Shown here one piece after another: positions 2-28,334 of a stretch of 33,841 nt of DNA. The stretch is from positions 1 to 33,841 of the forward strand of contig JAYTHY010000060.1 of NCBI GenBank assembly GCA_043732185.1. Reading direction: 5' to 3'. Source of the DNA: Fibrobacteria bacterium. GTDB lineage: Bacteria; Fibrobacterota; Fibrobacteria; UBA11236. Position 1 is the stretch's first letter; each line of letters starts with the position of its first letter. The position numbers and the translations under genes are program-made. The notes beneath the pieces were generated by a model, which worked only from the letters and a program-made list of their open reading frames with translations, searched no databases and had not been told where the DNA came from.

Positions 2-322
2 AGAAGGCCTGGCGCCGGGGTTTACATGCATTCCGATCAAGGATGCCAGTACACATCGAAGGAATATGTCACTGCCCTCAAGCGACTTGGATTCAAGCAC
101 TCTATGAGCGGTCGCGGGCAATGTTGGGACAATGCTCCGATGGAAAGCTGGAACTCAACTCTGAAGAGAGAATCCGATTTGGTCACCCAGATTAGGTCCG
201 GAATTGATGAAGTAGAGCGAGCGCTATTTATATGGATCGAAAGTTGGTATAATTTACGGAGAAGGCACTCAAAACTTGGCTATTGCAGTCCAGCCAATTT
301 CGAGAAACAAAAGGCTGCATAA
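2..322 (+). CDS. IS3-family transposase OrfB, C-terminal part (5' partial)
   Basis: Frame is open from base 2 (RRPGAGVYMHSDQGCQYTS). It carries the motifs HSDQGxQY, SMSGRGQCWDNAPMES..TLKRE and WYNxRRRHSKLGYxSP of IS3 DDE transposases. Confidence 0.93.
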   Translation, partial: RRPGAGVYMHSDQGCQYTSKEYVTALKRLGFKHSMSGRGQCWDNAPMESWNSTLKRESDLVTQIRSGIDEVERALFIWIESWYNLRRRHSKLGYCSPANFEKQKAA

Positions 323-850: not shown

Positions 851-2296
851 TCATTTTTCAATTATAAAGAGGCCGGAAAACCCTCGGTCAGCCGCGTCCA
901 ATCTCCATCCCCCTGCGACTCGCTGAAATCGAGCCAGCTGGCGCTTGCCTGATAAGTTCAATAAAACGGGTTCCGGAGAAGCTGCACTTCCAGCCACGAA
1001 TAAACCCTGTTGGATTTGAACCAAAACGGACTGACGTATCTGTTGCATAGTACGAATCCCGCTCACACCAGACATATCCAAGGCCAATGGTCTGGATAAG
1101 CTCCACTCACTGGCAAGTACTGCACTAGACTTTGCCAAGGCACCATGTTTGGCATGAATGAGCCGCGCTCGCCAGTAGATTTCCCCCTGGTATCCTACCA
1201 GGCTTGCAAGATCGTTGGCTTCTAGATGCAAAGTCGTGACTGCACTTACGCGATGCACCACGTCAGTAAAGGATGGGTCTTTTGCAATCTCAATTTCAAC
1301 ACTATCACCAGCAATCAAGTCCGCTTTAAAAGTCGAATCCGTACAGCCGCCATGCATGATTACTTTGAATTCCAAATCCAGCTTTCCTTTGCAGAGCTGT
1401 CCTGCTTCCGGATAATGGGGAATTGCGATGGCGATGCAAAGAGAATCGCGAACTTGGGTGACAAAGTTGTTCTGATAGCGTTTATGGATTTCATAATCGG
1501 AAAGAACACCCTCTTCCACTTTCACATAGTCGAGAATGCCGTCCAAATGCCGAGGATCATATTCACCGATTGTCCGCGAACCGATATAAGCCTCAACCAC
1601 ACTGTCTAAGCGCGGCTCCGCCCCTAAGCCTCGGACACGCCATTTATCCGTGGCATCCGTGCCATTTAAGTAAATGCGCATATTGGTACCATTCCATAGC
1701 CCTACCAAATGAGTCCATGTGTCTTTTTCTATGCAGCGATTGGTATAGACTTCCTTCCAATCTGAGGAATTGTCCATGCGCGCCATCGTAAATTCAGCAA
1801 CGCAATTGGCAAGCACTCCTCGGTCGATAAAGGAATAGTTTCCTTGAGCAGCCGACCAATCCGCTTCGGTTTTATAGGCATCGCGAAGAAGCGGGGGATA
1901 GAGGTAACCCCCACCCACTCGAAAGACGAAACCCTGCGTTGGCCCGCCCCCCCATGTGGCTGTATTCAAAATATCGGCAATAAAGCGACTGCTTTCTGGC
2001 GCGTAATTGTGAATGAGGAATCGGGCTTCTACTGTGAAGGGACCTTTTGGGCTATGAAAAGCAGGAATACGAATCAATCCTCCAGCGGGTCCAAATTCGA
2101 TTGAACCAGGATAGTCCTTGGATGGTTTTGCATCGCCCTGTATTTCTCCAAGAGGGAACGCCCCGGTCTGCTTGGCCAATTGGTTGGAATCATTGAATTC
2201 CAGGTGAAGCAATTCATTTGCAAATGTTGAATGGAGGGACAAAATTGCAAAAGTTGAATTAATAATGAAGGTTTTTATACTTATTTTAAGCTGCAT
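851..2296 (-). CDS. Secreted LamG/concanavalin-like domain protein with Ig/FN3-like region and T9SS-like C-terminal tail
   Basis: Signal peptide MQLKISIK...STFA. LamG-like motifs FTVEARF, WTHLVGLWNGTNMRIYLNG, YIGSR and LDGILDYVKV. IAKDPSF...YWRAR is FN3-like. C-terminus has LLNLSGKR...GLFII. Confidence 0.75.
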   Translation of the reverse strand: MQLKISIKTFIINSTFAILSLHSTFANELLHLEFNDSNQLAKQTGAFPLGEIQGDAKPSKDYPGSIEFGPAGGLIRIPAFHSPKGPFTVEARFLIHNYAPESSRFIADILNTATWGGGPTQGFVFRVGGGYLYPPLLRDAYKTEADWSAAQGNYSFIDRGVLANCVAEFTMARMDNSSDWKEVYTNRCIEKDTWTHLVGLWNGTNMRIYLNGTDATDKWRVRGLGAEPRLDSVVEAYIGSRTIGEYDPRHLDGILDYVKVEEGVLSDYEIHKRYQNNFVTQVRDSLCIAIAIPHYPEAGQLCKGKLDLEFKVIMHGGCTDSTFKADLIAGDSVEIEIAKDPSFTDVVHRVSAVTTLHLEANDLASLVGYQGEIYWRARLIHAKHGALAKSSAVLASEWSLSRPLALDMSGVSGIRTMQQIRQSVLVQIQQGLFVAGSAASPEPVLLNLSGKRQLARFQRVAGGWRLDAADRGFSGLFIIEK

Positions 2297-2570: not shown

Positions 2571-4190
2571 CTAGTTGAAGATCTGGTTGCTAGTGTTAAC
2601 CAGCCAAGGATTTCCGTTCGGACCGACATCTATAAGTGCGCCACCCCCAGGGATTGTGCGCCAAGCCGATCCGTTCCATATGGCGATTGGAAATCCACCA
2701 GGAACAATAGAACTAGTTTGGATTATATATGTAGTACCGTCTGGCCCACAACCAATATCAGACGCTGAACTGGGAAGATTCGTCCAGCCCGTACCATTCC
2801 ATCGATAGATACTTCCTCCCTCATTGACCATCCAGGCATTTCCGAGGTTGTCAACACTGATCCGGACGCCGGCTCCAGGTTTCAGATCCCAACTTGATCC
2901 ATTCCATTTGTAGACATTATACCCACCTGCGACTGCCTCATTGCTGATCCCCCAGACTGCTCCATTTGAGCCAACACCAATATCCTTGAATCCTTTACCA
3001 GCTTCCCGTCCGATCCAAGATGTTCCATTATGATAGAAGACTTGGCCGGTCGCATTCACCAACCATGGGTTACCGGAAGCATCAACATCGATCGCAACGC
3101 CTCCGCCGCCCGCAGCATTTGACCAAGTGGAACCATTCCATTTCCAAACTCCAAACCCTCCGGCAACGGCATTCGTCCCTACCACCCACGCGGTACCGTT
3201 GGCGCCAACGCCAATATCCTTTGCCGTGTTAGACGATAAATAGGTCCAGATGGATGGGTAAATGGTACCGATTCCAGCTATATCTCCCGACGATAACGAC
3301 GTCCTTTGTTTGTACCAAATCGTTCCATCGAGACGTGTCATGACGGCATTGTTGGTGTGAGATGCATCGCACGGTAAAACTGATGCAAAATCACATGAGC
3401 TATACATCATAATTGAACCATAATCCATTGGTCCATTATTCCAGCCATCTGTGACTGTACATGGAATTCCGCAGTCAAGGCTTGTTCCAAAATTGGCGTC
3501 ATTCCACGCCAAAAACTGCGCGGGTTGTGTTGCTCTATTTAAGTAGACGAGGATATCTTGGTTTCTTGTTGACCTGGATTGTTCATGGAATAGACCAAGA
3601 GCATGTCCAATTTCATGGATAGTATTGCCATCAGTGCAATTGGCGCCAATATTGATAACCTGCATACCTCCTCGCATCCCTATGCTATTAGAGAAACACG
3701 CATCTGCTAGATCTAAGTTTTGAAATTGTATGTAATTGGGATGGGAGGAATTACCGGCTGTCCATGGGACAAAACGTACATTCGTGTTCGCTTCCCAATT
3801 TGTGATAGCGCTGGTTACGCGAGTAGTCGTGGTTACGCTTGAATGAATAGTATAATAGACTACATTGTTTGGCCAACGAATGGCTGAATTTATTCGGCCT
3901 GTACTAGATGATTTTCCAAGCGGTGGCTCAAGACTGATTAGCTTTGGATCAAGTATGATGTCACCTCCAAAGACTGGTTGGCCTTCAATTTCTTGGTAAA
4001 CAATTGGAGCACCATATAAATAGCCCTTTTTCGTTTCGCCAGCTCTTCCTGGGAAAGCCTGTTCAATTGACGTCGTCCCAGAATTTGCCGTATTCGCCTT
4101 TTTATTTTCCTGGTTCTCGACCATGCAATTTTGAATTGCCAAAGCTAAAGCAATTAGTGCAAGATGTCCCATTCTCGATTTCATTTTCAT
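2571..4190 (-). CDS. Astacin-family (M12A) zinc metalloprotease lipoprotein with C-terminal tectonin-type six-bladed beta-propeller
   Basis: Lipobox-like LAIQNC, propeptide FGGDII, zinc motif HEIGHALGLFHEQSR and Met-turn SIMMY. Six repeats follow: DIGVGANGTAW, IDVDASGNPW, DIGVGSNGAVW, ISVDNLGNAW, DIGCGPDGTTY, IDVGPNGNPW. RBS AGGAG precedes the ATG. Confidence 0.9.
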   Translation of the reverse strand: MKMKSRMGHLALIALALAIQNCMVENQENKKANTANSGTTSIEQAFPGRAGETKKGYLYGAPIVYQEIEGQPVFGGDIILDPKLISLEPPLGKSSSTGRINSAIRWPNNVVYYTIHSSVTTTTRVTSAITNWEANTNVRFVPWTAGNSSHPNYIQFQNLDLADACFSNSIGMRGGMQVINIGANCTDGNTIHEIGHALGLFHEQSRSTRNQDILVYLNRATQPAQFLAWNDANFGTSLDCGIPCTVTDGWNNGPMDYGSIMMYSSCDFASVLPCDASHTNNAVMTRLDGTIWYKQRTSLSSGDIAGIGTIYPSIWTYLSSNTAKDIGVGANGTAWVVGTNAVAGGFGVWKWNGSTWSNAAGGGGVAIDVDASGNPWLVNATGQVFYHNGTSWIGREAGKGFKDIGVGSNGAVWGISNEAVAGGYNVYKWNGSSWDLKPGAGVRISVDNLGNAWMVNEGGSIYRWNGTGWTNLPSSASDIGCGPDGTTYIIQTSSIVPGGFPIAIWNGSAWRTIPGGGALIDVGPNGNPWLVNTSNQIFN

Positions 4191-4250
4191 CTCCTATTAT
4201 TTAGTGAATAACATGCTCGACCACATTTTTTAATGTCAGGCACAAAATAA

Positions 4251-4267
4251 CGCAATATCTATGCCGT
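4251..4267 (-). promoter_or_regulatory. Sigma-54 (-24/-12) promoter for the astacin-tectonin gene
   Basis: Minus strand reads ACGGCATAGATATTGCG, which is GG-N10-GC and close to the TGGCAC-N5-TTGC consensus. It lies about 60 nt upstream of the ATG at 4190. Confidence 0.72.
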
Positions 4268-4336
4268 TGAGTCGCCTGGGAATTCTTTCCTTAAATTGGT
4301 CAAAAAAACCAGTTGCATCCCACCGCCGGGAATCTC

Positions 4337-4352
4337 ATCTCAAAAATGGGAC
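4337..4352. promoter_or_regulatory. Candidate upstream activator sequence (bEBP binding site)
   Basis: Imperfect palindrome ATCTCA-AAAA-TGGGAC, about 100-110 nt upstream of the predicted sigma-54 transcription start. This is the usual enhancer position. Confidence 0.5.
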
Positions 4353-4426
4353 CCAAGGGTGGGTAATCTTGGCCTTTTTTTAGATTTAACCAAGTCCGAG
4401 TAGGGACAAGAGGTTACCATTGGATC

Positions 4427-6106
4427 ATGCCGTTCCGTCAAACTATCATAGACTACTCTGGGAGTAGGATTCCCTTGCGAAATGATGACAGATACACCAT
4501 AGTCAGGGAAATCGCCTCGGGTTCGACCGCCACGGTTTTTCTCGCCGAAGATAAGGTTTTGCGTCGGAAGGTGGCCCTTAAAAAACTGCATCCGCATCTT
4601 ACCAGCCACTATGAAACAGTCAAGCGTTTCGAGAAGGAGGCTGTCTCAGTTGCATCCCTTTCCCATGAAAACATCATCAAAATTTTTGATTTCGGGAATG
4701 AAGACAAAAACCTTTTTCTTGCTATGGAATACGTGGACGGGTTTTCGCTAGAAGCCCTATTGAATGGAGAAAACTTCAGCCTGCCAAACTTGGTGGCTCT
4801 TGATATATTCCAACAGATCTTAAAAGGATTGACAGCGGCTCATGACGTTGGGATTTGCCATCGCGATATCAAGCCTTCAAACATTTTGGTGGACAAGAAA
4901 GGCTTGGTGCGCATTGCCGATTTTGGGATTGCCTATTTGGCTGAAGAAAATTCCATCACGAAAACCGGATCCTTTCTCGGCACACCAAGATATTCAGCTC
5001 CAGAACAGGCCCAAGGCAAAACAGTCACAGCCAAATCTGATATATTTTCTACCGGCATCCTTTTTTACCGATGCCTAACCGGTAAACTTCCCTTCGAAGG
5101 AGAGACCTCCCATACCGTTCTGAAGTGTATTATCGAAAAACCCCCTCCCAAACTTCTACAAATTAATCGCCGCATTCTTCCTGGTCTTCCGGAATTGGTG
5201 GAAAAGATGCTCACCAAAATACCGGAGCGGCGACCAGATGCGAGGCATTGTCTTGTGGAACTGTCGACATTCGCTGAGATTCAGGGATTTAATTACAGCG
5301 AGGACCGCCTCCGTCGGTATTTGCTCGACCCGGCGGGGTATAAGGAAGAAGAAAGAACTGAGATCTCCGCTCATTTCATTCGGCAGGCAAGAACCTTTAA
5401 AGAAAATGGGGACTCCCGTCAAGCCCTAAAGCTGCTTTCCCAAGCGGAAATTTTTGAGGATTTGGATGCTGCCGGAAAAAGAGAATCCCAGATGCTTATG
5501 CTCAAACAGAATTCCAAGTACCGGAAATTGGCCCTCTTCTGTACCTTTCTGGCTTTTTCGGTAATCGTTGTTTTTTGGATCGCACGCCAACCTTCTGAGA
5601 TACAAACTCATCGGAAGGAAGCACAAACATATGTGAACATTTTAATTGATTCCAACAGCCTACGTGAAACGATGCCTTCAGTCTGGCCAGAATCCACCAA
5701 GGCCTTTAAAGCTGCTGCAGATTCCAAGGTTTTTCCCAAACCAATCCATCCGTCTTCCTTAAAACATTCAGCGCAGTCACAAAACCTAACCAAACCCGCT
5801 GAGACCCAAACCACGCAAGCCCTAATTACACCACAGTTTCCAACAGTACAGGAAAATGTAACCGCAACTCAACTTCCCGGTTATCTTATGATCAAAACCA
5901 GTCCCCCCTTTGCCATGATCCTTGTTGACGGAGACACCTTGGGAACGACGCCCCTTAAAAGCGCCTTTGAACTCCCCGCCGGAAATCATGAGTTGACTTT
6001 GCAAAAAGAGGGTTGCTTTCCCGTTACCTCACAGATAATTATACTTTCGGGGGAAACAGCTCTGCTACGCTTTGAATTGGCCAGACAGATAATGGTTTCC
6101 CAGTGA
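4427..6106 (+). CDS. Hanks-type Ser/Thr protein kinase with transmembrane helix and C-terminal PEGA domain
   Basis: Catalytic motifs VALKKL, HRDIKPSN, DFG, GTPRYSAPE and SDIFSTG are intact. TM segment LALFCTFLAFSVIVVFWIA. PEGA-like GYLMIKTSPPFAMILVDG..LGTTPL...LPAGNHELTLQKEG. Confidence 0.93.
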   Translation: MPFRQTIIDYSGSRIPLRNDDRYTIVREIASGSTATVFLAEDKVLRRKVALKKLHPHLTSHYETVKRFEKEAVSVASLSHENIIKIFDFGNEDKNLFLAMEYVDGFSLEALLNGENFSLPNLVALDIFQQILKGLTAAHDVGICHRDIKPSNILVDKKGLVRIADFGIAYLAEENSITKTGSFLGTPRYSAPEQAQGKTVTAKSDIFSTGILFYRCLTGKLPFEGETSHTVLKCIIEKPPPKLLQINRRILPGLPELVEKMLTKIPERRPDARHCLVELSTFAEIQGFNYSEDRLRRYLLDPAGYKEEERTEISAHFIRQARTFKENGDSRQALKLLSQAEIFEDLDAAGKRESQMLMLKQNSKYRKLALFCTFLAFSVIVVFWIARQPSEIQTHRKEAQTYVNILIDSNSLRETMPSVWPESTKAFKAAADSKVFPKPIHPSSLKHSAQSQNLTKPAETQTTQALITPQFPTVQENVTATQLPGYLMIKTSPPFAMILVDGDTLGTTPLKSAFELPAGNHELTLQKEGCFPVTSQIIILSGETALLRFELARQIMVSQ

Positions 6107-6663
6107 AAATTTTGGTTTGGAATTTCATGCTGGCCTGCTCACTGATATATCTACCAGCTTATGTCCTGTCCGAGACACCTTTGGTCTACGACCTGTTCAA
6201 ATGGGGGGAGTACGACAGTCTAGTGAAAGCGCTTGAACCAGTTATTGCAGATTGGCAAAATGGAAAAATACCTAAAAACAAGTTGGATTCAACTGAGGCT
6301 GCCAAGTCATATTTACTTATCGGCGCAGGTTATTTCGGAACTGATCGGTTGACCATGGCGGATAGCGCTTTCACATTCGTCTGCCGACTGGATAAAAGTA
6401 TACGCCTGGACCGGTTTTATGTTTCGAAGAAAATGGCGGACTTTTTTGACTCCACATGGATTATGGAAAAAACCCGGGGGGCGTCTGCTGTAGCAACACA
6501 CACTGATTCCAATCTGGTGAGACGAAAATCCCATGCCCATGAATGGTTGAAGTGGGGAACCGGAGTAGTAGCGACCGCAGCCACCTTGGGAGGAACCTAT
6601 CTGATACTATCTCACCCCCAGGAAAAAAAGACTACTGTTACTACTGTGATTGATGCCAGATGA
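6103..6663 (+). CDS. Exported hypothetical protein (TPR-like helical region, C-terminal hydrophobic segment)
   Basis: GTGA overlap with the kinase stop and ATGA overlap with the next gene. N-terminal signal peptide, AAKSYLLIGAGYFG...ADSAF helix pair, and C-terminal WLKWGTGVVATAATLGGTYLIL. Confidence 0.75.
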   Translation: MKILVWNFMLACSLIYLPAYVLSETPLVYDLFKWGEYDSLVKALEPVIADWQNGKIPKNKLDSTEAAKSYLLIGAGYFGTDRLTMADSAFTFVCRLDKSIRLDRFYVSKKMADFFDSTWIMEKTRGASAVATHTDSNLVRRKSHAHEWLKWGTGVVATAATLGGTYLILSHPQEKKTTVTTVIDAR

Positions 6664-9600
6664 AACTCTTAACGCTTTTTCTCAAACACTACATCGGTTT
6701 TCTAGTTCTGGGCTGCGGGTTTTGGTCATGCAATCTCAGCAATGATCCTGCGTCCAGCGACTATTACCTTTCACTCCTCGTCAACGATTCAATCAGCCAA
6801 TTCGACACAGTGCAAATTATCCTACTGGACCCTAAAACCGGCGACACTCGGGAATTGCTCTGGGATGGACCTCTAGCTTATCCAGACACGCTTAAACATC
6901 TGCGAACCCACTACTACCGAGGCGAAAATACAAACATCCTCATAGTGGCTGTCCGAGGCGACAGCATCCAATATAGGAGGATGGTGGAATTCCGGGGCCC
7001 AGGCGTTAAGCCCAGAATCGCTTTCGATACCACTATTGCAATTTTAAAACCAGTCCTCAAAGATACCCTGCCACCGATTTTGCTTCTATCCGGTTCCGAT
7101 TCTATCGAAATTATGAATGATGGCCACTTCTTCGATCCTGGGGCGACCTGCTGGGACGCGCATGACGGCAACCTTGATGACTTGATCCAACGAAATGGAA
7201 CCTGGGTGGATTCAATAGTGGGAGATTACAAACTCATGTACACATGCAAGGATTGGATTGGAAACCAAGCGCCTTCTTTACAGCGCATCGTGTACGTGCG
7301 CCTATCCCCGGACACCCAGCCTCCTACCCTCACCTTATCTTTACCAGATACAGTTAAGATTCCAGTAGGCAACACTTTTACAGAACCCGGAAGTGCCTGC
7401 CATGACGACCGTGAAGGAACCTTGCAAGTTGCCGTAACGGGGCATGCTGAGCACCAAGTACCTGGAACTTACGTACTCACCTACAACTGCCAAGATTCGA
7501 AAGGAAACGCCGCTACCAAAAAGCAGCGTTTTGTAGTGGTCTTTATCCCACCCGATCTAAACCCACCCGTTTTACACTTTACTGGGCCAGATAGCATTTC
7601 CTTGTTCGCTGGAAATGCGTTCGTGGATCCAGGCGCCACTTGTAGAGATGAGCGAGAAGGCGATTTGGACAGCCTTATAATCCGCACTGGAAGCATTACG
7701 GATACAGTGCCGGGTGTGTACCGCCTGGATTACAGTTGTAGGGATCATTCCGGGAACCAAGCCTTTCCAATACAGAGAAAGGTGACCTTCAAGCTACCGC
7801 CAGACACGGTTCCACCCGTGCTTGTTTTACTCGGTCAGGATACCCTGCGACTTGTTCAAGGCTCGGCTTACATTGATCCAGGAGGCTTCTGTCAGGATAA
7901 TCGTGAAGGAGCCTTGCAGGTTGCCGTAACTGGGCATGTGGAGCTCCAAGTCCCGGGAACCTACGTTCTTACCTACAACTGTAAGGACTCGAAAGGAAAT
8001 GCCGCGACTGAAAAGCGGCGTATTGTCGTGGTATTGGTCCCACCTGATCAGAAAGCACCCGCTTTACTCCTGACCGGATCCGATAGTATCCCCTTGTTTC
8101 TTGGGCAGGTATTCGTGGATCCGGGCGCCACTTGTAGAGATGGGCGCGAGGGCGATTTGGACAGCCTTATAGTCCGTACGGGAAGCGTTATGGATACAGT
8201 GCCGGGTGTGTACCGATTTGATTACAGTTGTAGGGATCATGCCGGGAACCAAGCCATTCCAGTGCAGCGGAAGGTATCCATTAAGCTACCGCCCGACACG
8301 ATACCACCTATGCTTGCTTTACTCGGTCAGGATACCCTGCGCATTGCCAAGGGATCAGCGTTTATCGAATCTGGAGGTTCCTGTAAAGACGCGAGAGACG
8401 GTATCATATTTGTTACGATAATTGGCAAGGTCAATACAGACTCGATCGGAAGTTATCTTTTAATTTATACCTGTCACGATGCGGCTGGCAATGCTGCAAT
8501 CGAAATGCGCCGCGTTGTGCAAGTATACCTTCCAGCCGATGTTGATGCACCGGTTTTGGCCATGATTGGAGCAGACTCACTTTCAATTTACCTAGGAGCC
8601 ATTTTCCACGACCCGGGCGCGACCTGTCTGGATGGCCGCGATGGAAATATGGCGGTAGAAACTGTCGGGGTAGTAAACTCTGCGCTTGAAGGCCTATATT
8701 CCATAATATATGATTGCAAAGACAAGGCGGGTAACTCAGCTACGACCAAACCCCGCAAGGTAAAAGTCGAAATCCCGCCCGATACAATTGCGCCGATCTT
8801 GGTTCTGAACGGTAGAGATTCCGTGACGGTGTTCCGATACGGAATTTTCGTCGATTCCGGCGCCACTTGTGAGGACGCCCGAGATGGGAAGTTACCCGTC
8901 ATATCGACTGGAACGCCGGGAATGTCTGCATTAGGCTTATATGCCATTGTCTACACTTGCACGGATAAAGCCGGCAATGGGGCTGTAATGACAAGAACTG
9001 TGGTCGTGATCGAGCCGCCGGACGTCACCTCTCCGGTGCTAGCTTTGGTGGGTTCAAGCGATCTAACTCTCTTTCTGGACAGTATATTCATCGATTCCGG
9101 CGCGACTTGCAACGACACCCACGATGGTGTCCTACCTGTTACGAGGACCGGAAGCGTGGACATTTCAAGGCAGGGAGAATATTCCTTGGACTATGCGTGC
9201 GTGGATGCTGCCGGCAACGTCACCCGCAAGTCTCGTAAAGTGGTTGTTACTAAGTCGCCGGAATTGGTAACGGTCCTGCCGGCAATCAAGGAGTTAATGT
9301 TGGATACGGGTTCATGGGGTACTTTTAACAATGGATATACAGGAATCTTTGCCTTTGGCACTTGGGGGGACAGCCCTTATAACAGCATTTTCCAATTCGA
9401 TTTGTCTCAGGTCAAGCGCTCCGGACTCCAATCGGCCAAAGCCGTCTTTTCAACCTTTGGATTCATCTCAGGGTGGGATGGTAGCGAAGTTAACGTTATC
9501 GTTCATGTTTTCAAGCTCAAGTCCGACTGGGTCGAAGGTACCGGCAACTGGTACTTCAGCAATGCATCCTATACCAATGGTGGCGATGAATTCCTCTCCA

Positions 9601-9956
9601 ACTATGTTTTGCCGGATTTCGTTAAATCTGGATCCACTGATCCAGCCGTGATTACGGGAACAACCAATATGGCACATGAACTGGTCAGGGTGGAAAACAT
9701 GATCGACCTGGGAACCCAAAACGTCACCGTGCGGTACACGGCCAAGCAGTCCTCGAACGGAGAACCGGCTCCTCCACAAGGTGATTTGACACCGTTTGAA
9801 ATAGATTTAACAGACTATGTGAAAAATACAATGCCCAGTGAGGACCATGGCATCTTCGTCGCACTTGAGGGGATACCTGGAGGTCGCATGATTGCGGTCA
9901 TTACCAAGGAATTGGGCACCGGAACCTTGGGACCAAAACTTATCTTATCCTACTGA
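6660..9956 (+). CDS. Surface lipoprotein with nine DUF5011-type Ig-like repeats and a C-terminal DNRLRE/CBM96-like domain
   Basis: Lipobox-like GFWSC. Nine units of DxxPPxLxLxG...DPGATCxDxxDG...GxYxxxYxCxDxAGN...RxV. C-terminal SIFQFDLSQV..QSAKAVF..VFKLKSDWVEG...EIDLTDYVK...PKLILSY. Confidence 0.85.
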   Translation: MKLLTLFLKHYIGFLVLGCGFWSCNLSNDPASSDYYLSLLVNDSISQFDTVQIILLDPKTGDTRELLWDGPLAYPDTLKHLRTHYYRGENTNILIVAVRGDSIQYRRMVEFRGPGVKPRIAFDTTIAILKPVLKDTLPPILLLSGSDSIEIMNDGHFFDPGATCWDAHDGNLDDLIQRNGTWVDSIVGDYKLMYTCKDWIGNQAPSLQRIVYVRLSPDTQPPTLTLSLPDTVKIPVGNTFTEPGSACHDDREGTLQVAVTGHAEHQVPGTYVLTYNCQDSKGNAATKKQRFVVVFIPPDLNPPVLHFTGPDSISLFAGNAFVDPGATCRDEREGDLDSLIIRTGSITDTVPGVYRLDYSCRDHSGNQAFPIQRKVTFKLPPDTVPPVLVLLGQDTLRLVQGSAYIDPGGFCQDNREGALQVAVTGHVELQVPGTYVLTYNCKDSKGNAATEKRRIVVVLVPPDQKAPALLLTGSDSIPLFLGQVFVDPGATCRDGREGDLDSLIVRTGSVMDTVPGVYRFDYSCRDHAGNQAIPVQRKVSIKLPPDTIPPMLALLGQDTLRIAKGSAFIESGGSCKDARDGIIFVTIIGKVNTDSIGSYLLIYTCHDAAGNAAIEMRRVVQVYLPADVDAPVLAMIGADSLSIYLGAIFHDPGATCLDGRDGNMAVETVGVVNSALEGLYSIIYDCKDKAGNSATTKPRKVKVEIPPDTIAPILVLNGRDSVTVFRYGIFVDSGATCEDARDGKLPVISTGTPGMSALGLYAIVYTCTDKAGNGAVMTRTVVVIEPPDVTSPVLALVGSSDLTLFLDSIFIDSGATCNDTHDGVLPVTRTGSVDISRQGEYSLDYACVDAAGNVTRKSRKVVVTKSPELVTVLPAIKELMLDTGSWGTFNNGYTGIFAFGTWGDSPYNSIFQFDLSQVKRSGLQSAKAVFSTFGFISGWDGSEVNVIVHVFKLKSDWVEGTGNWYFSNASYTNGGDEFLSNYVLPDFVKSGSTDPAVITGTTNMAHELVRVENMIDLGTQNVTVRYTAKQSSNGEPAPPQGDLTPFEIDLTDYVKNTMPSEDHGIFVALEGIPGGRMIAVITKELGTGTLGPKLILSY
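7410..8341 (+). repeat. Intragenic tandem duplication with 492-bp period (two Ig domains)
   Basis: 7410-7849 aligns with 7902-8341 at a constant offset of 492. For example, TCGTGGATCC occurs at 7621 and 8113, and CTCGGTCAGGATACCCTGCG is present in both copies. Confidence 0.9.
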
Positions 9957-9966
9957 AGCTTGCGCT

Positions 9967-11706
9967 TCATCCATCGGCAAGATGGCGAAAAAGCGTGCTT
10001 CGACCTATCCCCAGCAATGCTGCAGCCTTATCCTTCTCTCCTAAGCATGCGGCTAGTGCCTTCTGAATATAATCGAGCTGAAAAGACTTAGTGGCATCAT
10101 CCAGCGAAATCCAGTTCGCTTTGGTATCTGGAAAAGACAACTTAACCAAAGGCGAATTTGCAAACAGTACAGACTTATGGACCATATTGATGAGTTCGCG
10201 CACATTCCCAGGCCAAGCATATCGACCAATTGCAAGAAGGGTATCTGGATGGAAACCAATAATATTCTTCTCCTTGTACTGGGATTTCACCTTCTCCAAA
10301 AAATGGAAGGCGAGGATCTGGATATCCTCCCCTCGATCGCGCAAAGCGGGAAGATGGATGGAATGCTGGTTAATCCGATAAAAAAGATCCTGCCTGAAAC
10401 GCCCTTCAGCAACCCTTTCTTCCAAGTTTCGATTTGTGGCACAGATGATGCGCACATCTGTCTGGATCTCAGAAGTCTGCCCCACTGGACGCACCAATCC
10501 CGTCTCTAGGACACGTAGAAGCATAGCCTGCAAGCCCGATTCCAGTTCACCGATTTCATCCAAAAAAAGCGTGCCACCGTGGGCCGCCGTGAAAAGGCCC
10601 TTCTGATCCTGGAGAGCACCGGTAAAGGCACCCTTGCGATGTCCGAAAAGTTCACTAGCCATCAGTTCGCCACGCAACGTGCTACAATTAACCGCTAAAA
10701 AGGGTTTTTCGCGTCTCCTACTCCGCTTATGAACCAATTGGGCGAAAACGTCCTTGCCAGTCCCGGTTTCTCCTTGCAATAGGATTGCAAGGTCGCTGAT
10801 GGCAATGGCTTCAACCTCATCCATCACCTTTTCCATCGCCGAACACATAGCCACCACCCCATCTCGCCCTTTCTCAGGCTGAAGAGATGCAAGCACCTTG
10901 CTTTGCATGGCGATATAGCCGACATGATTGATGAGACACCCGGTAACCATGGAATAGACTTCCAATTCATTAAAGTCCTTGCTCCCAAATGAAACCGAGG
11001 GAGTATTGGAACCGAGGTATATAAGTCCTGAAAGCTCACCTCCTGCAAGAATCGGGCAGCAAAGTACGGATTGGAGCCTAAGATCGGAAATGCTCTTTGA
11101 ATGGGCATAGGCTGGATCAGAGAATGCATTCTGAATGAAAACACCCTTGCGAGTTTGCAGGACTTGGGCAACAATTGTATCACTGAAGAGTCTTTCTGAA
11201 TCACGCTGGCTGAAAGACACAAAGACGTTCGGCTTGCCACCTGGATCCAACGTGAAAAGAAAGGCTTCATTGCCTTTGAATACCTCGATCAATAGACCCA
11301 TAATTTTAGTCACCAAAGTCTGAAGATCCCGCTCGGTTGCAACTAGAGCACAAAGTTTGGTTAAACCCGTCTGCAAGTTCGATTTGAGCTCTACCTTTTC
11401 GCCTTCAGAGTCTTGGAGCTGTTGCAGGTGATCCAAAATCAGTGCGTAGGATCCCAACTCTAAGCGATCACCCGGTTTGAGCACGCCTTCCTCGCAGCGC
11501 TTGCCATTCAATGAAAATTTAACGCGGGTCTGGACCAAAGCAATTTTTAGCCCGCCCTCAGCAAGGAACATCCGCAAGGCCACGGAGGGAATTTCCGGAT
11601 CGGATAATATGATTTCATTTTCTGGTGCGCTCCCCAAAGTCAGGGTAGGTTCTAAAAGTGGAACGATTTCCGAGCCTTTTTCATGGAATATTCTCAGGCA
11701 GTACAT
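9967..11706 (-). CDS. Sigma-54-dependent enhancer-binding protein, FHA-like + GAF + AAA+ + Fis-type HTH
   Basis: GETGTGKD Walker A, ELFGHRKGAFTGA, LFLDEIGEL, RFRQDLFYRI, WPGNVREL and AAALLGIGRSTLFR. N-terminal FHA-like fold (LGS...LNG...LKPGDRLELG) and GAF (SVLCCPI...GLIYL). Confidence 0.93.
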   Translation of the reverse strand: MYCLRIFHEKGSEIVPLLEPTLTLGSAPENEIILSDPEIPSVALRMFLAEGGLKIALVQTRVKFSLNGKRCEEGVLKPGDRLELGSYALILDHLQQLQDSEGEKVELKSNLQTGLTKLCALVATERDLQTLVTKIMGLLIEVFKGNEAFLFTLDPGGKPNVFVSFSQRDSERLFSDTIVAQVLQTRKGVFIQNAFSDPAYAHSKSISDLRLQSVLCCPILAGGELSGLIYLGSNTPSVSFGSKDFNELEVYSMVTGCLINHVGYIAMQSKVLASLQPEKGRDGVVAMCSAMEKVMDEVEAIAISDLAILLQGETGTGKDVFAQLVHKRSRRREKPFLAVNCSTLRGELMASELFGHRKGAFTGALQDQKGLFTAAHGGTLFLDEIGELESGLQAMLLRVLETGLVRPVGQTSEIQTDVRIICATNRNLEERVAEGRFRQDLFYRINQHSIHLPALRDRGEDIQILAFHFLEKVKSQYKEKNIIGFHPDTLLAIGRYAWPGNVRELINMVHKSVLFANSPLVKLSFPDTKANWISLDDATKSFQLDYIQKALAACLGEKDKAAALLGIGRSTLFRHLADG

Positions 11707-11883: not shown

Positions 11884-13032
11884 TTATTCTGGAAGGGCTC
11901 CAATCAAAGCGGCTATCCACAGTCTTTCCGCATCGGCAATGCGATCCCAGTTGAACCCCTTAGCCCATTCCCGTCCGGCCTTTCCCATGGCTTCCCGCTG
12001 TTCAGCATTCAGTATCAATCCTTCCATCGCTATTCGTAGCGCCTTAACGTCACTCACTGGCACCATTACGGCGGTAACATCTGCGCTCACGCTATCCCTA
12101 AAACCCTCCGCGTCGGTTACAAGCACAGCCTTGCCAGACGCATTGGCCTCCAAAGCCGCAATTCCGAATCCTTCAAACCGGGACGGGCTGCAGAAGAATA
12201 AACACGAAGATAAAAGTTCGCGCTTTTCTTCATGGGAAACATTGGGTTTCAGTTGAATTTGATTCCCAAGCCTTACGGGAATCAAGTTGCGCACGGCAGT
12301 CAAGGCTTGCGGTGACGCGGCTCCAGCAAGCACCAGCAGAGGAAAAGGCTTCTTTTGACTGGCGGATTCTTGGGTTGCAAGACCTGCATACGCATCGATC
12401 AGGAAATCCAGTCCTTTCATATAAATGTCAAAGCGACCTAGAAATAAAATAAAAGTTGGGTCAACAGTTTTAGGCATGGACGTCAATAAAGCCGAGTCAA
12501 TGCTGTTCGATGTCACAAAAACATTGGCCGCTGCATTTTTCCGTTGAATCCAATCGGCTACGGATCGATTGGACACTAAAAAATTTCGTAAACCCCGTAA
12601 CATTAGGGTTTCGAGCAGCAAGGGGATACTTCCAAATAGCCCAAATTTCTTGAGTGCATCACGCCCCACCCGGTGGTGGACGACGGCGAAACATTTATTT
12701 CGGCATAACAGGCCGGTGATGATGGGCGCAAAAGGGGAAACGCTGTTTCCAATGACGTCGGCTCTATCGAAAAGCACTCTCAGATTGGCGGTGAGCGCAA
12801 AGCTGAGTCGACACAGCCAATTCGAATTGCCCAAACCCAGGGCCTGCATGCGAATGCCTTCCCTAACTTGTGGAGCAAATCCGGGATACCTACCGACAAA
12901 TAAAGTCACTTCCCATTCCTTGGCCAAACGGCGCAGCACTTCGAAATCGCGCAAGGCGCCACCACCCGCGCACCAGGGGTTTTGCAAACTGTCATAGGAG
13001 TAATAGGAAAGTTTAAGCTGGGAGGGTGTCAT
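11884..13032 (-). CDS. Glycosyltransferase family 4 (GT-B)
   Basis: NPWCAGGG N-terminus, FLGRFDIYMKGLD, and the PSRFEGFGIAALEANASG (EX7E) motif. Confidence 0.9.
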   Translation of the reverse strand: MTPSQLKLSYYSYDSLQNPWCAGGGALRDFEVLRRLAKEWEVTLFVGRYPGFAPQVREGIRMQALGLGNSNWLCRLSFALTANLRVLFDRADVIGNSVSPFAPIITGLLCRNKCFAVVHHRVGRDALKKFGLFGSIPLLLETLMLRGLRNFLVSNRSVADWIQRKNAAANVFVTSNSIDSALLTSMPKTVDPTFILFLGRFDIYMKGLDFLIDAYAGLATQESASQKKPFPLLVLAGAASPQALTAVRNLIPVRLGNQIQLKPNVSHEEKRELLSSCLFFCSPSRFEGFGIAALEANASGKAVLVTDAEGFRDSVSADVTAVMVPVSDVKALRIAMEGLILNAEQREAMGKAGREWAKGFNWDRIADAERLWIAALIGALPE

Positions 13033-13156: not shown

Positions 13157-13660
13157 ATGGCACTTTCCATTCAACCTGCAACGGAAATCGACATTCCAAT
13201 CATTCGGGCACTCGCCCATGAAATTTGGCGTGAGTATTATCCAACGGTCATTTCTGGGGAACAAATCGAATACATGCTGGTCATGATGTATGCCCGTGAC
13301 ATACTCATCCAAGAGCTGCGACAGGGAAAGGTTTATGCACTCGCAAGCTGGGGAAATCGGAATGTAGGCTACCTGTCCTATTATCAAGAAAGGCCTGAAC
13401 GGCTTAAACTGTCCAAACTTTATTTGCTTAAGGATTTTCGTGGCCTGGGATTGGGAAAGCAAATGCTGGAGCATGTGATGAATGCCGCAACAGCCTATGC
13501 CGCTGTAGAAGTCAGTCTATGCGTCAACAAAAAGAATGCGCAAGCCATCGCCGCCTATGAAAAATTCGGATTTGTCCAATGTGAAGCTGTGGTAGCGGAC
13601 ATCGGAGGTGGGTTTGTGATGGATGATTGGGTATATCGGTTAATTCGGCACTTGAAATGA
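13157..13660 (+). CDS. GNAT family N-acetyltransferase
   Basis: LSKLYLLKDFRGLGLGK acetyl-CoA motif, VNKKNAQAIAAYEKFGF, and C-terminal DIGGGFVMDD. Confidence 0.9.
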   Translation: MALSIQPATEIDIPIIRALAHEIWREYYPTVISGEQIEYMLVMMYARDILIQELRQGKVYALASWGNRNVGYLSYYQERPERLKLSKLYLLKDFRGLGLGKQMLEHVMNAATAYAAVEVSLCVNKKNAQAIAAYEKFGFVQCEAVVADIGGGFVMDDWVYRLIRHLK

Positions 13661-15520
13661 AACTGGGTTGCCGCTAGGATCTCCACCATTGGCACCCAGT
13701 ACCCCGCCAGTAGTGATTATGCGTACGACATAATAGACGGTAGACCCAAGGTGAACACCGAGCAAGTCGTCCTCCCAGGAGGTGGTGGCAATGGGACCGG
13801 AAGTCGCCGCAACTCGCATAGACTCATCTAGTCGCAGCACTTCATAGGACTGTAGGAGTGGGTAGTTGAGGAGCGCATCCCATTTTAAATACGCTTTTAC
13901 TCCAGATGAAGGCAAAATCTGCAGACTAAAAATTATTGGTGGAGGGGCGGTAGGATTGTACCTGACCGCAACCGGCGGGATGCTGAGGGTATCTCCCGCC
14001 TTCACGGTAATGGATTTTAGCGTGTCCACCAGGAAATAGCCTTCTGGTGGAGTGAAAATAATTAAGTCATAGGTGCCGACTGGGACTCCGACCAATTTGA
14101 ATGGTCCATATGGAGAACCAGAGTCTGCAAAGGTATTGTAAGGTGTGTTGTCTAATGAGGCCTGGATATTTTCATTGCCTTTTTTGGGCGCGCTCACCCC
14201 AATGTTTTGCCGGGAAACAAGGCCCTTCACCGTTCCCGTTGGCCGTAAATCCAGTAACAAATTCATATTTCCATCCACCTTAATAATGCGGTATGCCTTG
14301 GTATTTGAAAGCGCGCTCACGGCTTCCACGCCATAATAATCAGGCGCCAAATGCATGAATGAAACCAAGCCGTCGATTCCGGTGAGTCCGCTGGCCAATT
14401 CAATTACAGGTGCAGGGCGCGAGTTCGGCTGGCTGGATTTTTTTGGAATGGGGAAAATCTTTACTATCGCAGCATTTGCATTCAGGCCTAAAGCCCTTAC
14501 GTTTATTTTTAAGGTGGCGTCGCCGATTGAAATTGTATCTGCTGGAATTAAAGACGCTACGCCTCCACTCCAATCGCTTTTTGTTCCGAGTTTATTAACC
14601 GTTCGGATCCGATATTGGATGGCGTGGCCGGCCACAAAGGGTGAAAAGGCATCTACAAAGACCGTATCAAAAAAGGAAAGTGTATCGGTGAGGCTGATGT
14701 CCAAGCTGTCGATTCGCTGCATTTCATAATGGGATACATTGGAGACGAAAACGGGATTCCAATGGATGCGGATGCCGCCTCCACCACTAACCGAGTCCAC
14801 GCTGGGTACACCCGGAACCGGCGGCGTTACGTACGGGCTCCATGTCAAATCCAGGCGGGGAAGAGTGGTGGTGGTACCCGCTATTACCCGCACAGAGTCC
14901 ACATAGGCCGTCAGGTAATGGCCGTCCAAGGCAGTGAATACCATTCGATATAGCCCAGAACCCAATGGACCGAATTGAAAATTTCCGGAGGTGTCTGTGA
15001 TATACGATTTGTCCGTGTGCATAAGCCGCACTACTATTTTTTCATTATTGAAAATTCCGGCAGGTCGCAAATTGGGGCCGCGCGTTACGGTGCCTTTAAC
15101 CATACCAGGGTTATCCAAAATAAGGGAAACATGCACGGGAGTGGCACTATCTAAAATTTCCGCCTGAGGGAGCCAGGCTATTTTTCCTGATACAGAATCG
15201 AAAGCCTCCAAGGAATAAGTGGAAACGGACAGCTTGGCAAAGGAAAAACTGCCGTCGCTACACGTGGTGGTTTGGGAAACCACGGATGCCATACCGGATG
15301 AATCCGCGCCGACGCGTTGTATCAGCTTCACAACCGCACCATTAACCGAGTTTCCGGATGCGTTTAAAATCTTTCCCTTAATGCCGGTAGGATTTCCCGT
15401 TTCCGTGCATGGGCCAGTTAATGGTTGATTTTCGGTGACAGGTCCACAACCACATAAATACAACCCGGCCAGCATCCCTACCGCTGTATGCCTGGACCAC
15501 TTGAAGAATAAACCCATCAT
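13640..15520 (-). CDS. Lipoprotein with carboxypeptidase-regulatory-like beta-sandwich domains and FN3-like domains, internally duplicated
   Basis: Lipobox LCGC followed by TETGN. Repeated GxVxG...T(D)xxGxFxF..L..GxY units and W...YE..R...Y.(I/V)R FN3-like units. ATGA overlap with the upstream TIGR02147 gene. Confidence 0.75.
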   Translation of the reverse strand: MMGLFFKWSRHTAVGMLAGLYLCGCGPVTENQPLTGPCTETGNPTGIKGKILNASGNSVNGAVVKLIQRVGADSSGMASVVSQTTTCSDGSFSFAKLSVSTYSLEAFDSVSGKIAWLPQAEILDSATPVHVSLILDNPGMVKGTVTRGPNLRPAGIFNNEKIVVRLMHTDKSYITDTSGNFQFGPLGSGLYRMVFTALDGHYLTAYVDSVRVIAGTTTTLPRLDLTWSPYVTPPVPGVPSVDSVSGGGGIRIHWNPVFVSNVSHYEMQRIDSLDISLTDTLSFFDTVFVDAFSPFVAGHAIQYRIRTVNKLGTKSDWSGGVASLIPADTISIGDATLKINVRALGLNANAAIVKIFPIPKKSSQPNSRPAPVIELASGLTGIDGLVSFMHLAPDYYGVEAVSALSNTKAYRIIKVDGNMNLLLDLRPTGTVKGLVSRQNIGVSAPKKGNENIQASLDNTPYNTFADSGSPYGPFKLVGVPVGTYDLIIFTPPEGYFLVDTLKSITVKAGDTLSIPPVAVRYNPTAPPPIIFSLQILPSSGVKAYLKWDALLNYPLLQSYEVLRLDESMRVAATSGPIATTSWEDDLLGVHLGSTVYYVVRIITTGGVLGANGGDPSGNPVSFQVPN

Positions 15521-16353
15521 ACGCGCCCTCGATTGTGACTGAAAGGAAAAAGATGCAAATTCAACTGGTAAATCATGTCCTCGCCGGAATCGTTCATGGC
15601 AATTGCCATAATTCGCTTTCGGAAAGCCTGGATCTCGGCTTTTATCCGCTTGAACCCGTCTTGAGAAACACCCATGGTCAATCCGCTGATATCCCTTGCA
15701 GCCGCTGGATGCTTGTCTATGGATCGTTTTGCCAAATCCATGGCTGTCTTATGAAATCCAGCCACGGACAAGGCGGCCACTTCGTCACCGGTAGTTAAGG
15801 CCAGGTCACCGACAGAATACGTGCCCTTCGGCGTCTTGTTCAATAGACCCAAACCAATCAGCAATTCTATCGAATCCTTAACTTGCTTTGCGCTTATAAC
15901 CGGATCCAATAGCAAGCCGACCCGCTCCAGATCCGCCGCCTCGGATGTATTCAACAACGGGAGCAAAGAACGCAAGGCAATGTGATGCCACGATGAAAGA
16001 TAGGCGAACTGGGCTTGGCGCAGGCGTTGATGCTTTCCATACTTTTGGATTTCCGTCAGGCGGGCAAATATCTTTTCCTTTTCCAAAGTCGTTTCAGCCT
16101 GATTGAAAAGAACTAAAGCATGAAAGTACTCCGCCTGTTTTTCTGAAAATCGGAAATACTTAGACAACTTATCCGCACTGTCATGCGACAGATTTCGCTG
16201 TCCATTCATGACGCGCAGCAAATAATCACGCGCCTTGAATCCGGCTCGTTCAGCCAACATGCGATAAGAAAAAGCAGGGCTGGCCGCCTTTTTTTCTTGG
16301 AAATACTCCCGCAAATACTGGCGGAAATCGGTATAGGAAAAAATGGATTCCAT
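15517..16353 (-). CDS. TIGR02147 family protein (DUF4423 domain, predicted HTH/winged-helix DNA-binding)
   Basis: 278 aa. IFSYTDFRQYLREYF..KK...FSYRMLAERAGF, YLSSWHH, FHK..MDLAKRSI...RDISGLT and YQLNLHLFP are the signature of this Fibrobacter paralogous family. Confidence 0.92.
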   Translation of the reverse strand: MESIFSYTDFRQYLREYFQEKKAASPAFSYRMLAERAGFKARDYLLRVMNGQRNLSHDSADKLSKYFRFSEKQAEYFHALVLFNQAETTLEKEKIFARLTEIQKYGKHQRLRQAQFAYLSSWHHIALRSLLPLLNTSEAADLERVGLLLDPVISAKQVKDSIELLIGLGLLNKTPKGTYSVGDLALTTGDEVAALSVAGFHKTAMDLAKRSIDKHPAAARDISGLTMGVSQDGFKRIKAEIQAFRKRIMAIAMNDSGEDMIYQLNLHLFPFSHNRGRV

Positions 16354-20474: not shown

Positions 20475-20475
20475 G

Positions 20476-21576: not shown

Positions 21577-21700
21577 ACTACCTGAATGATGTACGAGGAA
21601 TGCATACTCAAAGTAATTCACCGAACCGCGTCAGGCAGCAAAAAAGACTCTCAAACAATGTGCCCCTGGAATAACTCTCCCAGGGAGAATCGAGGATAAA

Positions 21701-27904: not shown

Positions 27905-27919
27905 TTTAGCATCCCGTCT

Positions 27920-28321
27920 TCAATTTTTGGATTTATCAGCAACTCTTCGACGCGCTTCGGCGCGGGCTAGGGCGAGTTTGGCTTGCGCCTTTTCAAGCGC
28001 GGCGCCGGAGGGATTGGCTATCATCTCCAAAGCCTTATGCTTTGCAATCTCAACTCGCTTAAGGTCAATTTCTTCCGGAGTCTCAACGGCTTCTGCCAAG
28101 ACTACGGCTTGGTTATTGTGAAATTCCAGAAAACCGCTGGTCACATTATAATAGGTTTCTTTATGCACGATTCTTACTCGTAACAATCCTGCAACCATAC
28201 TGGATAGGATAGGGGCGTGATCCTTCAGAATTTCAAAAGGCCCGGCAGCCCCAGGAACGAGAAGTGCGTCTACCTCTCCTTCGAAAACAGCTTTGTCCGG
28301 GGTTAAGATCTGAAGTTTCAT
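27920..28321 (-). CDS. atpC: F1Fo ATP synthase epsilon subunit
   Basis: LQILTPD, PG..G.FEIL.DHAP, GFLE, LAEAVE..EEID. Follows atpD. Confidence 0.97.
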   Translation of the reverse strand: MKLQILTPDKAVFEGEVDALLVPGAAGPFEILKDHAPILSSMVAGLLRVRIVHKETYYNVTSGFLEFHNNQAVVLAEAVETPEEIDLKRVEIAKHKALEMIANPSGAALEKAQAKLALARAEARRRVADKSKN

Positions 28322-28334
28322 ACTTGTATTTACC

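What the first reader, a model, noticed from the sequence alone, without database searches (positions are those of the whole stretch)
2571..11706. Self-contained trans-envelope Ser/Thr-kinase to sigma-54 signalling module with its likely target gene
Seen: a translationally coupled operon (GTGA overlap at 6103-6106, ATGA at 6660-6663) encodes a membrane kinase with an exported PEGA domain, a small exported helical protein and a 1098-aa Ig-stalk lipoprotein. An FHA-GAF-GAFTGA activator ends 10 nt away on the opposite strand. On the other side, a divergent astacin-tectonin gene has a clean sigma-54 promoter and a UAS-like palindrome. Known: FHA domains couple to Hanks kinases, and bEBPs act at -24/-12 promoters from upstream enhancers. 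Kinase/FHA-bEBP wiring is best known from myxobacteria. Inference: the lipoprotein tip senses a surface or glycan, signals via the small protein and PEGA domain to the kinase and bEBP, and switches on a secreted cargo. No histidine kinase, receiver domain or ECF sigma is present. I know of no characterised system of this architecture in Fibrobacterota.
Basis: partly seen in the sequence, partly recalled or inferred. Interest (0 to 1): 0.88.

Follow-up and report, generated by a model that had tools for sequence, protein, structure and literature searches.

The report
Kinase-linked sigma-54 switch for surface proteins
A four-gene cassette (membrane kinase, small exported partner, swappable surface lipoprotein, sigma-54 activator) recurs in many Fibrobacterota genomes together with a specific two-box DNA enhancer in front of secreted-protein genes, pointing to an uncharacterised way of passing outside signals to gene expression.

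Summary
Confirmed and extended. All genes, overlaps and the -24/-12 site are present. The activator clade occurs in 38 of 296 phylum genomes. Kinase-PEGA plus small TPR gene lie beside it in 29; contig ends hide the other 9. The enhancer is a tandem GTCYCA-N4-TGRGAC about 50 bp above the sigma-54 promoter. A matrix from 11 distant-family loci ranks the astacin promoter first in this genome (43.1 bits, next 27.4). The cargo varies (tectonin/astacin lipoproteins, LamG-cohesin-dockerin proteins, peptidases) while the element stays; two genomes hold 13 and 18 sites. Corrections: the FHA domain lacks its phosphothreonine-binding residues, so canonical docking is unlikely. The lipoprotein is swappable or absent, and small-protein/lipoprotein pairs also occur without a kinase. 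The tip has a DNRLRE/CBM96-type fold (Z 14-16); PEGA-TPR docking got only weak support (0.52, controls 0.00). Kinase-to-activator control and glycan sensing remain inferred. The scan noted similar cassettes before in Myxococcota; ten paper searches found none describing this system.

The parts
2571..4190 (-). Astacin-tectonin lipoprotein, predicted target (cargo) gene; likely start 4184
   Evidence: Pfam Astacin E 6e-26, Tectonin E 2e-14; HExxHxxGxxH and lipobox LALAIQNC in the sequence; homologues divergent from the kinase in G010 and G013
4252..4266 (-). sigma-54 -24/-12 promoter element, 50 bp after the second enhancer box
   Evidence: rpoN present in G000
4317..4352 (.). Tandem enhancer: two GTCYCA-N4-TGRGAC-type boxes (4317-4332, 4337-4352), 20 bp apart
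   Evidence: top site in the 4.46-Mb genome with a matrix from 11 distant loci; only pattern match in G000, 0 mismatches; first of 4069 ORF-upstream regions
4427..6106 (+). Hanks-type Ser/Thr kinase, helical juxtamembrane region, one TM helix, low-complexity linker, C-terminal periplasmic PEGA domain; likely start TTG 4475
   Evidence: Pfam; K52, E71, HRD, DFG and T178 invariant in 27 orthologues, T180 in 25; TM helix
6103..6663 (+). Small exported TPR-like protein with an FxWGEY motif and a Gly/Ala-rich C-terminal helix followed by a short strand-like tail
   Evidence: AF2 pLDDT 84, all-helical; only weak TPR fold hits, E>=0.1; TPR stretch in profile hits; motif in 25-28 of 29 rows; weak docking support with PEGA
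6660..9956 (+). Lipoprotein: shared N-terminal domain, nine Ig repeats, C-terminal DNRLRE/CBM96-like domain (about 9261-9956)
   Evidence: tip model pLDDT 86 matches 8WAB Z 15.6 and 7VBO Z 14.1, Foldseek E 4e-6 and 7e-6
9967..11706 (-). Enhancer-binding protein: degenerate FHA, GAF, AAA+ with GAFTGA, Fis-type HTH with recognition helix (S/G)RSTFFRY
851..2296 (-). Secreted LamG protein; a conserved neighbour in the genus but with no enhancer or promoter site, so not counted as a target
   Evidence: 69% paralogue on C90

Best explanation
A trans-envelope signalling cassette whose output is sigma-54 transcription of surface and secreted proteins. Shown by comparison: kinase-PEGA, the small TPR protein and the FHA-GAF activator travel together, usually with one lipoprotein of either of two unrelated types. 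The activator's target is a tandem palindrome about 50 bp above a -24/-12 promoter; here it drives the divergent astacin-tectonin gene. Inferred: the lipoprotein and the small protein form an outer-envelope unit; the small protein's periplasmic TPR domain contacts the kinase's PEGA domain; engagement of the lipoprotein tip (a carbohydrate-binding-type fold) by an outside polymer or surface changes that contact and activates the kinase; the kinase then relieves FHA-GAF repression of the AAA+ ring by phosphorylating the activator or docking on it without canonical phosphothreonine reading. My odds by step: cassette real 0.97; activator-enhancer-astacin link 0.9; kinase controls activator 0.7; TPR-PEGA contact 0.55; outside glycan or surface is the signal 0.45.
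For: Co-occurrence: 29 of 38 activator-bearing genomes have kinase-PEGA and the small gene within 8 kb, the other 9 end at a contig edge, 24 of the 29 also have a type A or B lipoprotein, in at least five gene orders. Enhancer: 43.1 against 27.4 bits genome-wide; 13 of 30 held-out cassette records score >=24 against 0 of 228 control pieces; pattern in 24 of 38 activator genomes against 19 of 258 others, reversed control 2 of 296. In G130/G131, 18 of 21 examined sites have a -24/-12 element 48-55 bp downstream. The two loci with another recognition helix (G295, G290) lack the site. Kinase catalytic and activation-loop residues conserved. Tip fold. PEGA-TPR score 0.52, best control 0.00, runs agree in 100% of contacts, partner pLDDT >=87 (weak: the mark was reached by 116 of 157 solved and 2 of 215 mismatched pairs, but at <=0.60 by only 18 solved and both mismatches). 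The FxWGEY motif marks cassette copies and is absent from stand-alone paralogues.
Against: No experiment links kinase to activator. The FHA lacks Arg, Ser, His and the first Asn. 17 of 30 held-out records show no site beside the cassette, several on long intact loci (G140, G134, G136, L072), and one of the 13 positives (L126) was fetched because it matched the pattern. The seed consensus was read by eye from a display that included the window. No type A or B lipoprotein in intact loci of G019 and G094. G000 has six or more kinase-free paralogues of the small gene, four of the six profile hits examined directly before a lipoprotein. The tip is acidic (pI 4.6), whereas CBM96 binds alginate through basic residues (PMC9971899, passages). 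Surface exposure of the lipoprotein was not tested. Genomes are related, so counts overstate independence.
Confidence: 0.58

Rival explanations
1. Envelope-state feedback, not outside sensing: the small TPR protein is a general display or chaperone partner of lipoproteins, and the kinase reads its load or assembly state, inducing surface proteins and proteases as an envelope response.
For: Kinase-free small-gene + lipoprotein pairs in G000, nine paralogues sharing the lipoprotein N-terminal domain; cassettes without a detected lipoprotein; mixed cargo with many peptidases.
Against: Type A lipoproteins keep a conserved CBM-like tip on a stalk of variable length; cargo is rich in lectin-like domains (LamG, tectonin).
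Confidence: 0.24
2. The activator is switched by a small molecule through its GAF domain; the kinase operon is only a co-inherited modulator or acts on other substrates.
For: GAF is more conserved than the FHA (S175, S205, P218, G227 invariant) and resembles ligand-binding GAFs of phosphodiesterases; the FHA is degenerate.
Against: Kinase and activator stay neighbours through many rearrangements, often adjacent or overlapping; the FHA fold is kept in all 34 aligned rows.
Confidence: 0.11
3. One reading: the autophosphorylated kinase is read by a phosphothreonine-binding FHA domain.
For: FHA fold homologous to GarA, Rv1747 and EmbR; conserved activation-loop threonines.
Against: Against GarA the binding positions read S26, P40, A43 and no first Asn; Arg in 3 of 34 and His in 1 of 34 orthologues, whereas a canonical FHA of the same genome keeps GR, SxxH and NG.
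Confidence: 0.05
4. Chance neighbourhood: the astacin gene and promoter-like bases are unrelated to the cassette.
For: The -24/-12 match alone is within chance; astacin is not the neighbour outside the genus.
Against: Unique top-ranked tandem site with the conserved 50-bp spacing; same layout in G010 and G013, with boxes before tectonin genes in G010, G013, G003 and G012.
Confidence: 0.02

Closest known systems
FHA-domain sigma-54 enhancer-binding proteins of Myxococcus xanthus (Jelsbak, Givskov, Kaiser 2005; only its title seen in a reference list; content recalled) and the pfk-pkn4 region
   Same: FHA-bearing activator encoded near a Hanks kinase. PMC2887360 (passage) calls the pkn4 region the only kinase region syntenic in seven myxobacteria. 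Two earlier scan notes describe PEGA-kinase + TPR + FHA activator + lipoprotein cassettes in Myxococcota.
   Different: Another phylum; degenerate FHA throughout; a defined tandem enhancer and regulon; two exchangeable lipoprotein types. Orthology to the myxobacterial cassette was not tested directly; two searches returned no named myxobacterial protein, but those searches are insensitive.
GAF-regulated bEBPs (NifA, NorR, FhlA)
   Same: GAF-AAA+-HTH, GAFTGA, upstream palindromic enhancers, -24/-12 promoter (NCBIfam hits below cut-off).
   Different: Extra FHA-fold domain and fixed linkage to a membrane kinase and exported proteins; enhancer only about 50 bp above -24.
Cell-surface signalling (TonB receptor / anti-sigma / ECF) and Bacteroidota hybrid two-component sensors (recalled)
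   Same: Works like them: an outside cue is inferred to cross the envelope and induce linked surface genes.
   Different: No TonB receptor, anti-sigma, ECF sigma or His-Asp relay; Ser/Thr kinase and sigma-54 instead.
PknH-EmbR and PASTA kinases (recalled; PMC6213207 passages)
   Same: Membrane Hanks kinase with an extracytoplasmic domain and an FHA-bearing regulator.
   Different: PEGA not PASTA, diderm envelope with accessory exported proteins, AAA+ activator, non-canonical FHA.
CBM96 / DNRLRE carbohydrate-binding modules (7VBO, 8WAB)
   Same: Fold of the lipoprotein tip (Z 14.1 and 15.6); Pfam CBM96 in 2 of 7 members.
   Different: 17-19% identity, acidic, not attached to a lyase; ligand unknown.

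Membership tests
sigma-54 enhancer-binding protein | AAA+ core with GAFTGA, Walker A/B, C-terminal HTH | tested here: met
sigma-54 enhancer-binding protein | rpoN in the genome and a -24/-12 promoter with an upstream palindromic enhancer | tested here: met
   (sequence level only)
sigma-54 enhancer-binding protein | DNA binding and ATP-dependent activation | not testable with these tools
   needs EMSA and transcription assays
Canonical phosphothreonine-binding FHA | FHA fold | tested here: met
   profile hits to GarA E 5.6e-5, Rv1747, EmbR; PF16697 above cut-off
Canonical phosphothreonine-binding FHA | G-R, S-x-x-H and N-G binding residues (motif recalled, positions read off GarA) | tested here: not met
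Hanks-type Ser/Thr kinase | VAIK lysine, helix-C glutamate, HRD, DFG, activation-loop Thr | tested here: met
Hanks-type Ser/Thr kinase | Phosphorylates the activator | not testable with these tools
CBM96 / DNRLRE module | Fold | tested here: met
CBM96 / DNRLRE module | Basic groove residues that bind alginate | tested here: inconclusive
   tip has 14 K/R against 25 D/E; no residue-level superposition obtained; PMC9971899 passages
Myxobacterial kinase / FHA-activator cassette | PEGA kinase, TPR protein, FHA(-GAF) activator and lipoprotein in one cluster | tested here: met
   architecture; the myxobacterial side rests on unchecked scan notes
Myxobacterial kinase / FHA-activator cassette | Orthology (shared clade and enhancer motif) | not tested
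   no myxobacterial genome was on hand; Atlas look-alikes of the small protein from Myxococcota score 0.88-0.89, a lead only
Slam / type XI lipoprotein exporter | TPR domain plus 14-strand barrel (recalled) | tested here: not met
   186-aa all-helical model, no barrel
Astacin M12A peptidase | HExxHxxGxxH and Met-turn | tested here: met
   HEIGHALGLFH and SIMMY; Pfam; LegP model far below cut-off (142 of 300 bits)

The most novel reading that the evidence does not exclude
A distinct class of cell-surface signalling: a swappable glycan-binding lipoprotein is held by a small protein whose Gly/Ala-rich helix crosses the outer membrane (tail outside on the lipoprotein, TPR inside on the kinase's PEGA domain), and the kinase fires a sigma-54 activator through a pseudo-FHA without phosphothreonine reading, controlling regulons of up to about 18 type IX-type and lipoprotein surface genes in Fibrobacterota, with counterparts in Myxococcota.
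Probability: 0.3. Interest if true: 0.85.

Novelty: new variant of a known kind. Interest (0 to 1): 0.66.

Why it matters
Fibrobacterota are polymer degraders whose signalling is almost unstudied. This gives a complete, testable circuit: candidate sensor, relay, kinase, activator, a precise binding site and predicted regulons. If the wiring holds, it is a route from the cell surface to transcription that uses neither a histidine kinase nor an ECF sigma. It would also explain what kinase-linked FHA-type sigma-54 activators do when their FHA cannot read phosphothreonine. The enhancer-promoter pair can be tested in a heterologous reporter even though the organisms examined here are genome bins.

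Tried and rejected
One search used the wrong part of the activator and an absurd threshold; it shows nothing. The window's LamG gene looked like the conserved fifth gene but has no site in the window or in 4 of 5 genus-level copies; rejected as a target here. No -24/-12 match (<=2 mismatches) upstream of the window's kinase or of any of 10 activator genes; 3 of 27 kinase upstream regions had one, so autoregulation is not indicated. Type A tip against type B lipoprotein: no homology (probability 0.2%). The type B profile found no informative PDB sequence and no Pfam family in the members scanned. Foldseek of the small protein gave no match at E<=0.001. The terminator scan found nothing after astacin; a hairpin there folds at z -2.3, a weak hint only. 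No RNA holder listed. Cluster look-ups gave no taxonomy. Homologue searches gave 20 and 16 proteins, one named Fibrobacteria, and did not address Myxococcota. Scan notes by sequence, by relatives and one word search were empty. Jelsbak 2005 is not held. Supplementary files were not consulted and could mention such clusters.
Full report
Observation. The window is a whole contig (C60) of a 4.46-Mb genome. Close relatives of the activator are titled Fibrobacteria, Fibrobacterota or Chitinispirillaceae; the listed holders of the DNA are sediment metagenomes, two of them possibly its source. All five ORFs, both overlaps and the 10-nt gap are as described. Pfam gives kinase + PEGA, no family for the 186-aa protein, nine PF16403 Ig repeats, FHA-like + GAF + sigma-54 AAA+ + HTH, and astacin + tectonin. 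One source-like contig spans 2200-12000 without differences. The -24/-12 match alone is not unusual (46 against 34.9 expected).

The cassette is conserved. The small protein matched 11 of 61 related genomes. A profile of the activator's FHA-GAF part matched 38 of 296 phylum genomes, in 11 of 21 families, and none of 151 in the largest family. I fetched the surroundings of all listed matches outside G000. Counting and including G000, 29 of the 38 genomes have kinase-PEGA and the small gene within 8 kb of the activator, and in the other 9 the contig ends on the side where they would lie. 24 of the 29 also have a lipoprotein of type A or B. Orders include K-S-L against E, K-S-L-E, K-S-E-L, K-E-S-L and a split form. 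Four of 7 metagenome loci found with the tip profile were close matches, two with the full cassette and one cut by a contig end. Related genomes are not independent.

The lipoprotein is the variable part. Type A (shared N-domain, 5-11 Ig repeats where counted, conserved tip) goes with a short small protein in most cases. Type B (about 340 aa) goes with a longer one. Type A tip and type B are not detectably homologous. Neither type was found in intact loci of G019 and G094; G295 and G290 have other lipoprotein-like genes. The window's tip folds confidently (pLDDT 86) and matches a chondroitin-sulfate-binding module (8WAB, Z 15.6, rmsd 2.7, 166 aligned) and the alginate-binding CBM96 (7VBO, Z 14.1, rmsd 3.1, 167 aligned), well above the next row at 8.6. 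CBM96 binds through basic residues (PMC9971899, passages), and this tip is acidic, so the ligand is open.

The enhancer. Upstream of genes beside the cassette in distant families I saw a -24/-12 element and, above it, two palindromic boxes. A matrix built from 11 loci outside the window's family (boxes 20-21 bp apart; 48-52 bp to the -24 element in 10, 62 in one) ranks the astacin promoter first in G000: 43.1 bits, next 27.4, with 20-bp spacing and a 50-bp gap. It is also first of 4069 ORF-upstream regions (next 23.5). The seed used to pick the boxes was read from a display that included the window. Among 30 cassette records not used for training, 13 score 24 or more and 10 score 30 or more, against 0 of 228 control pieces of G000; one positive (L126) was fetched because it matched, and 17 records have no nearby site, some truncated and some intact. 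The tandem pattern with up to one mismatch occurs in 43 of 296 genomes: 24 of the 38 with the activator and 19 of 258 without; the reversed control occurs in 2. G130 and G131, which each gave a training locus, hold 13 and 18 sites; of 21 further sites examined, 18 have a -24/-12 score above 10 at 48-55 bp. The recognition helix is conserved in 32 of 34 activators; the two outliers (G295, G290) lack the site beside the cassette. rpoN is present.

The cargo varies. Beside the cassette in distant families it is often a LamG-cohesin-dockerin protein, several with a type IX sorting domain (10 proteins, one more), or a VIT protein. In the genus it is astacin-tectonin and tectonin lipoproteins divergent from the kinase, with boxes in front of them in G010, G013, G003 and G012. 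Of 34 predicted targets scanned, 18 had a family (C25 and M14 peptidases, LRR-Ig, VIT-vWA, LamG, dockerin, sorting domains) and 16 had none. The window's LamG gene has no site.

The relay. The kinase keeps all catalytic motifs and activation-loop threonines in 27 orthologues. The activator's N-terminal domain is an FHA fold, but opposite GarA's Arg, Ser, His and Asn stand S26, P40, A43 and no Asn; Arg occurs in 3 of 34 and His in 1 of 34 rows. A canonical FHA from the same genome keeps them. So phosphothreonine docking is unlikely. The small protein is helical and TPR-like. Docking of its TPR part on PEGA scored 0.52 against 0.00 for three controls, runs agreeing in 100% of contacts with partner pLDDT of at least 87. 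The tool rates this weak: 116 of 157 solved and 2 of 215 mismatched pairs reached the mark, but only 18 solved and both mismatches at 0.60 or under. G000 has further paralogues of the small gene with no kinase beside them; four of the six profile hits examined lie directly before a lipoprotein gene, and they lack the FxWGEY motif that 25-28 of 29 cassette copies keep. The C-terminal helix of 34 short homologues is Gly/Ala-rich, far less hydrophobic than the kinase TM (1.39 against 2.38) and has basic residues before it (scales recalled). For a protein with a signal peptide this fits an inner-membrane anchor poorly; an outer-membrane position is an inference.

Mechanism. Most likely, the small protein and lipoprotein form an outer-envelope unit that reports through TPR-PEGA to the kinase, which activates the enhancer-binding protein by a non-canonical route, switching on surface proteins (0.58 for the whole chain; 0.9 for the activator-enhancer-astacin link). 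The main rival is envelope-state feedback (0.24).

Known or new. Ten searches (listings and abstract starts) found no description of this cassette or motif. I read passages of PMC7159879, PMC11980068, PMC4880591, PMC9971899, PMC2875238, PMC6213207 and PMC2887360. Jelsbak 2005 on FHA activators of Myxococcus was seen only as a title. The library lacks most subscription papers, and supplements were not read. Two earlier scan notes describe like cassettes in Myxococcota; they are unchecked. Atlas look-alikes of the small protein come from clusters mostly labelled Calditrichota, Fibrobacterota and Zixiibacteriota (0.95-0.96) and Myxococcota (0.88-0.89). Verdict: it works like a cell-surface signalling system and belongs to the bEBP and Hanks kinase families, but is not a canonical FHA circuit. 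New variant of a known kind, interest 0.66.

Noticed in passing
G000 C28:3644-7667, C26:20322-26859, C115:1234-5266, C14:2412-4296, C50:72481-74033, C138:39488-41674, C87:34319-34999: A recurring two-gene unit: small TPR protein with a Gly/Ala-rich C-terminal helix followed by a lipoprotein gene, with no kinase; nine lipoproteins share the window lipoprotein's N-terminal domain. Possibly a lineage-specific lipoprotein display or chaperone system.
   Followed up: partly
L032, L035, L038-L041, L043, L046, L048, L049, L028: Secreted LamG-cohesin-dockerin proteins, several with a type IX sorting domain, carrying cohesin and dockerin in one chain; dockerin proteins also at L057:1335-2678 and L033:10925-12547.
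   Followed up: partly
G130 and G131 (L141-L160): Expanded regulons of 13 and 18 near-perfect tandem sites, including gingipain-like C25 peptidases, M14 peptidases and LRR-Ig proteins.
   Followed up: partly
G013 C20 about 28600-41900 (L125, L126, L172); G010 C62; G003 C207: Arrays of duplicated tectonin and astacin-tectonin lipoprotein genes, most copies with their own enhancer boxes.
   Followed up: partly
L016:10328 and L070:6571: Weaker tandem boxes before the lipoprotein gene (G007) and at the activator's start; possible autoregulation in some genomes.
   Followed up: no
G128 L133-L135; G118 L084: Three near-identical sites with a variant promoter far from any clear gene in G128; four tandem copies of a 21-bp unit matching the box in G118, which had no activator hit.
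   Followed up: no
window 26-322: Integrase-core remnant of an insertion sequence at the contig start.
   Followed up: no
window 13640-16353: DUF4423/HTH gene followed by a carboxypeptidase-regulatory-domain protein, a pair seen in other loci too.
   Followed up: no
window 11884-13032 and 19575-21621: The GT4 glycosyltransferase and the NamZ + nucleotidyltransferase genes flank the cassette in genus relatives; in the window NamZ and LamG have moved.
   Followed up: partly
G000 C6:101967-105538 (L025): A second sigma-54 activator directly before an 806-aa membrane Ser/Thr kinase, of another architecture.
   Followed up: no
window 26933-33459: MoxR ATPase and ATP synthase operon; ordinary.
   Followed up: no
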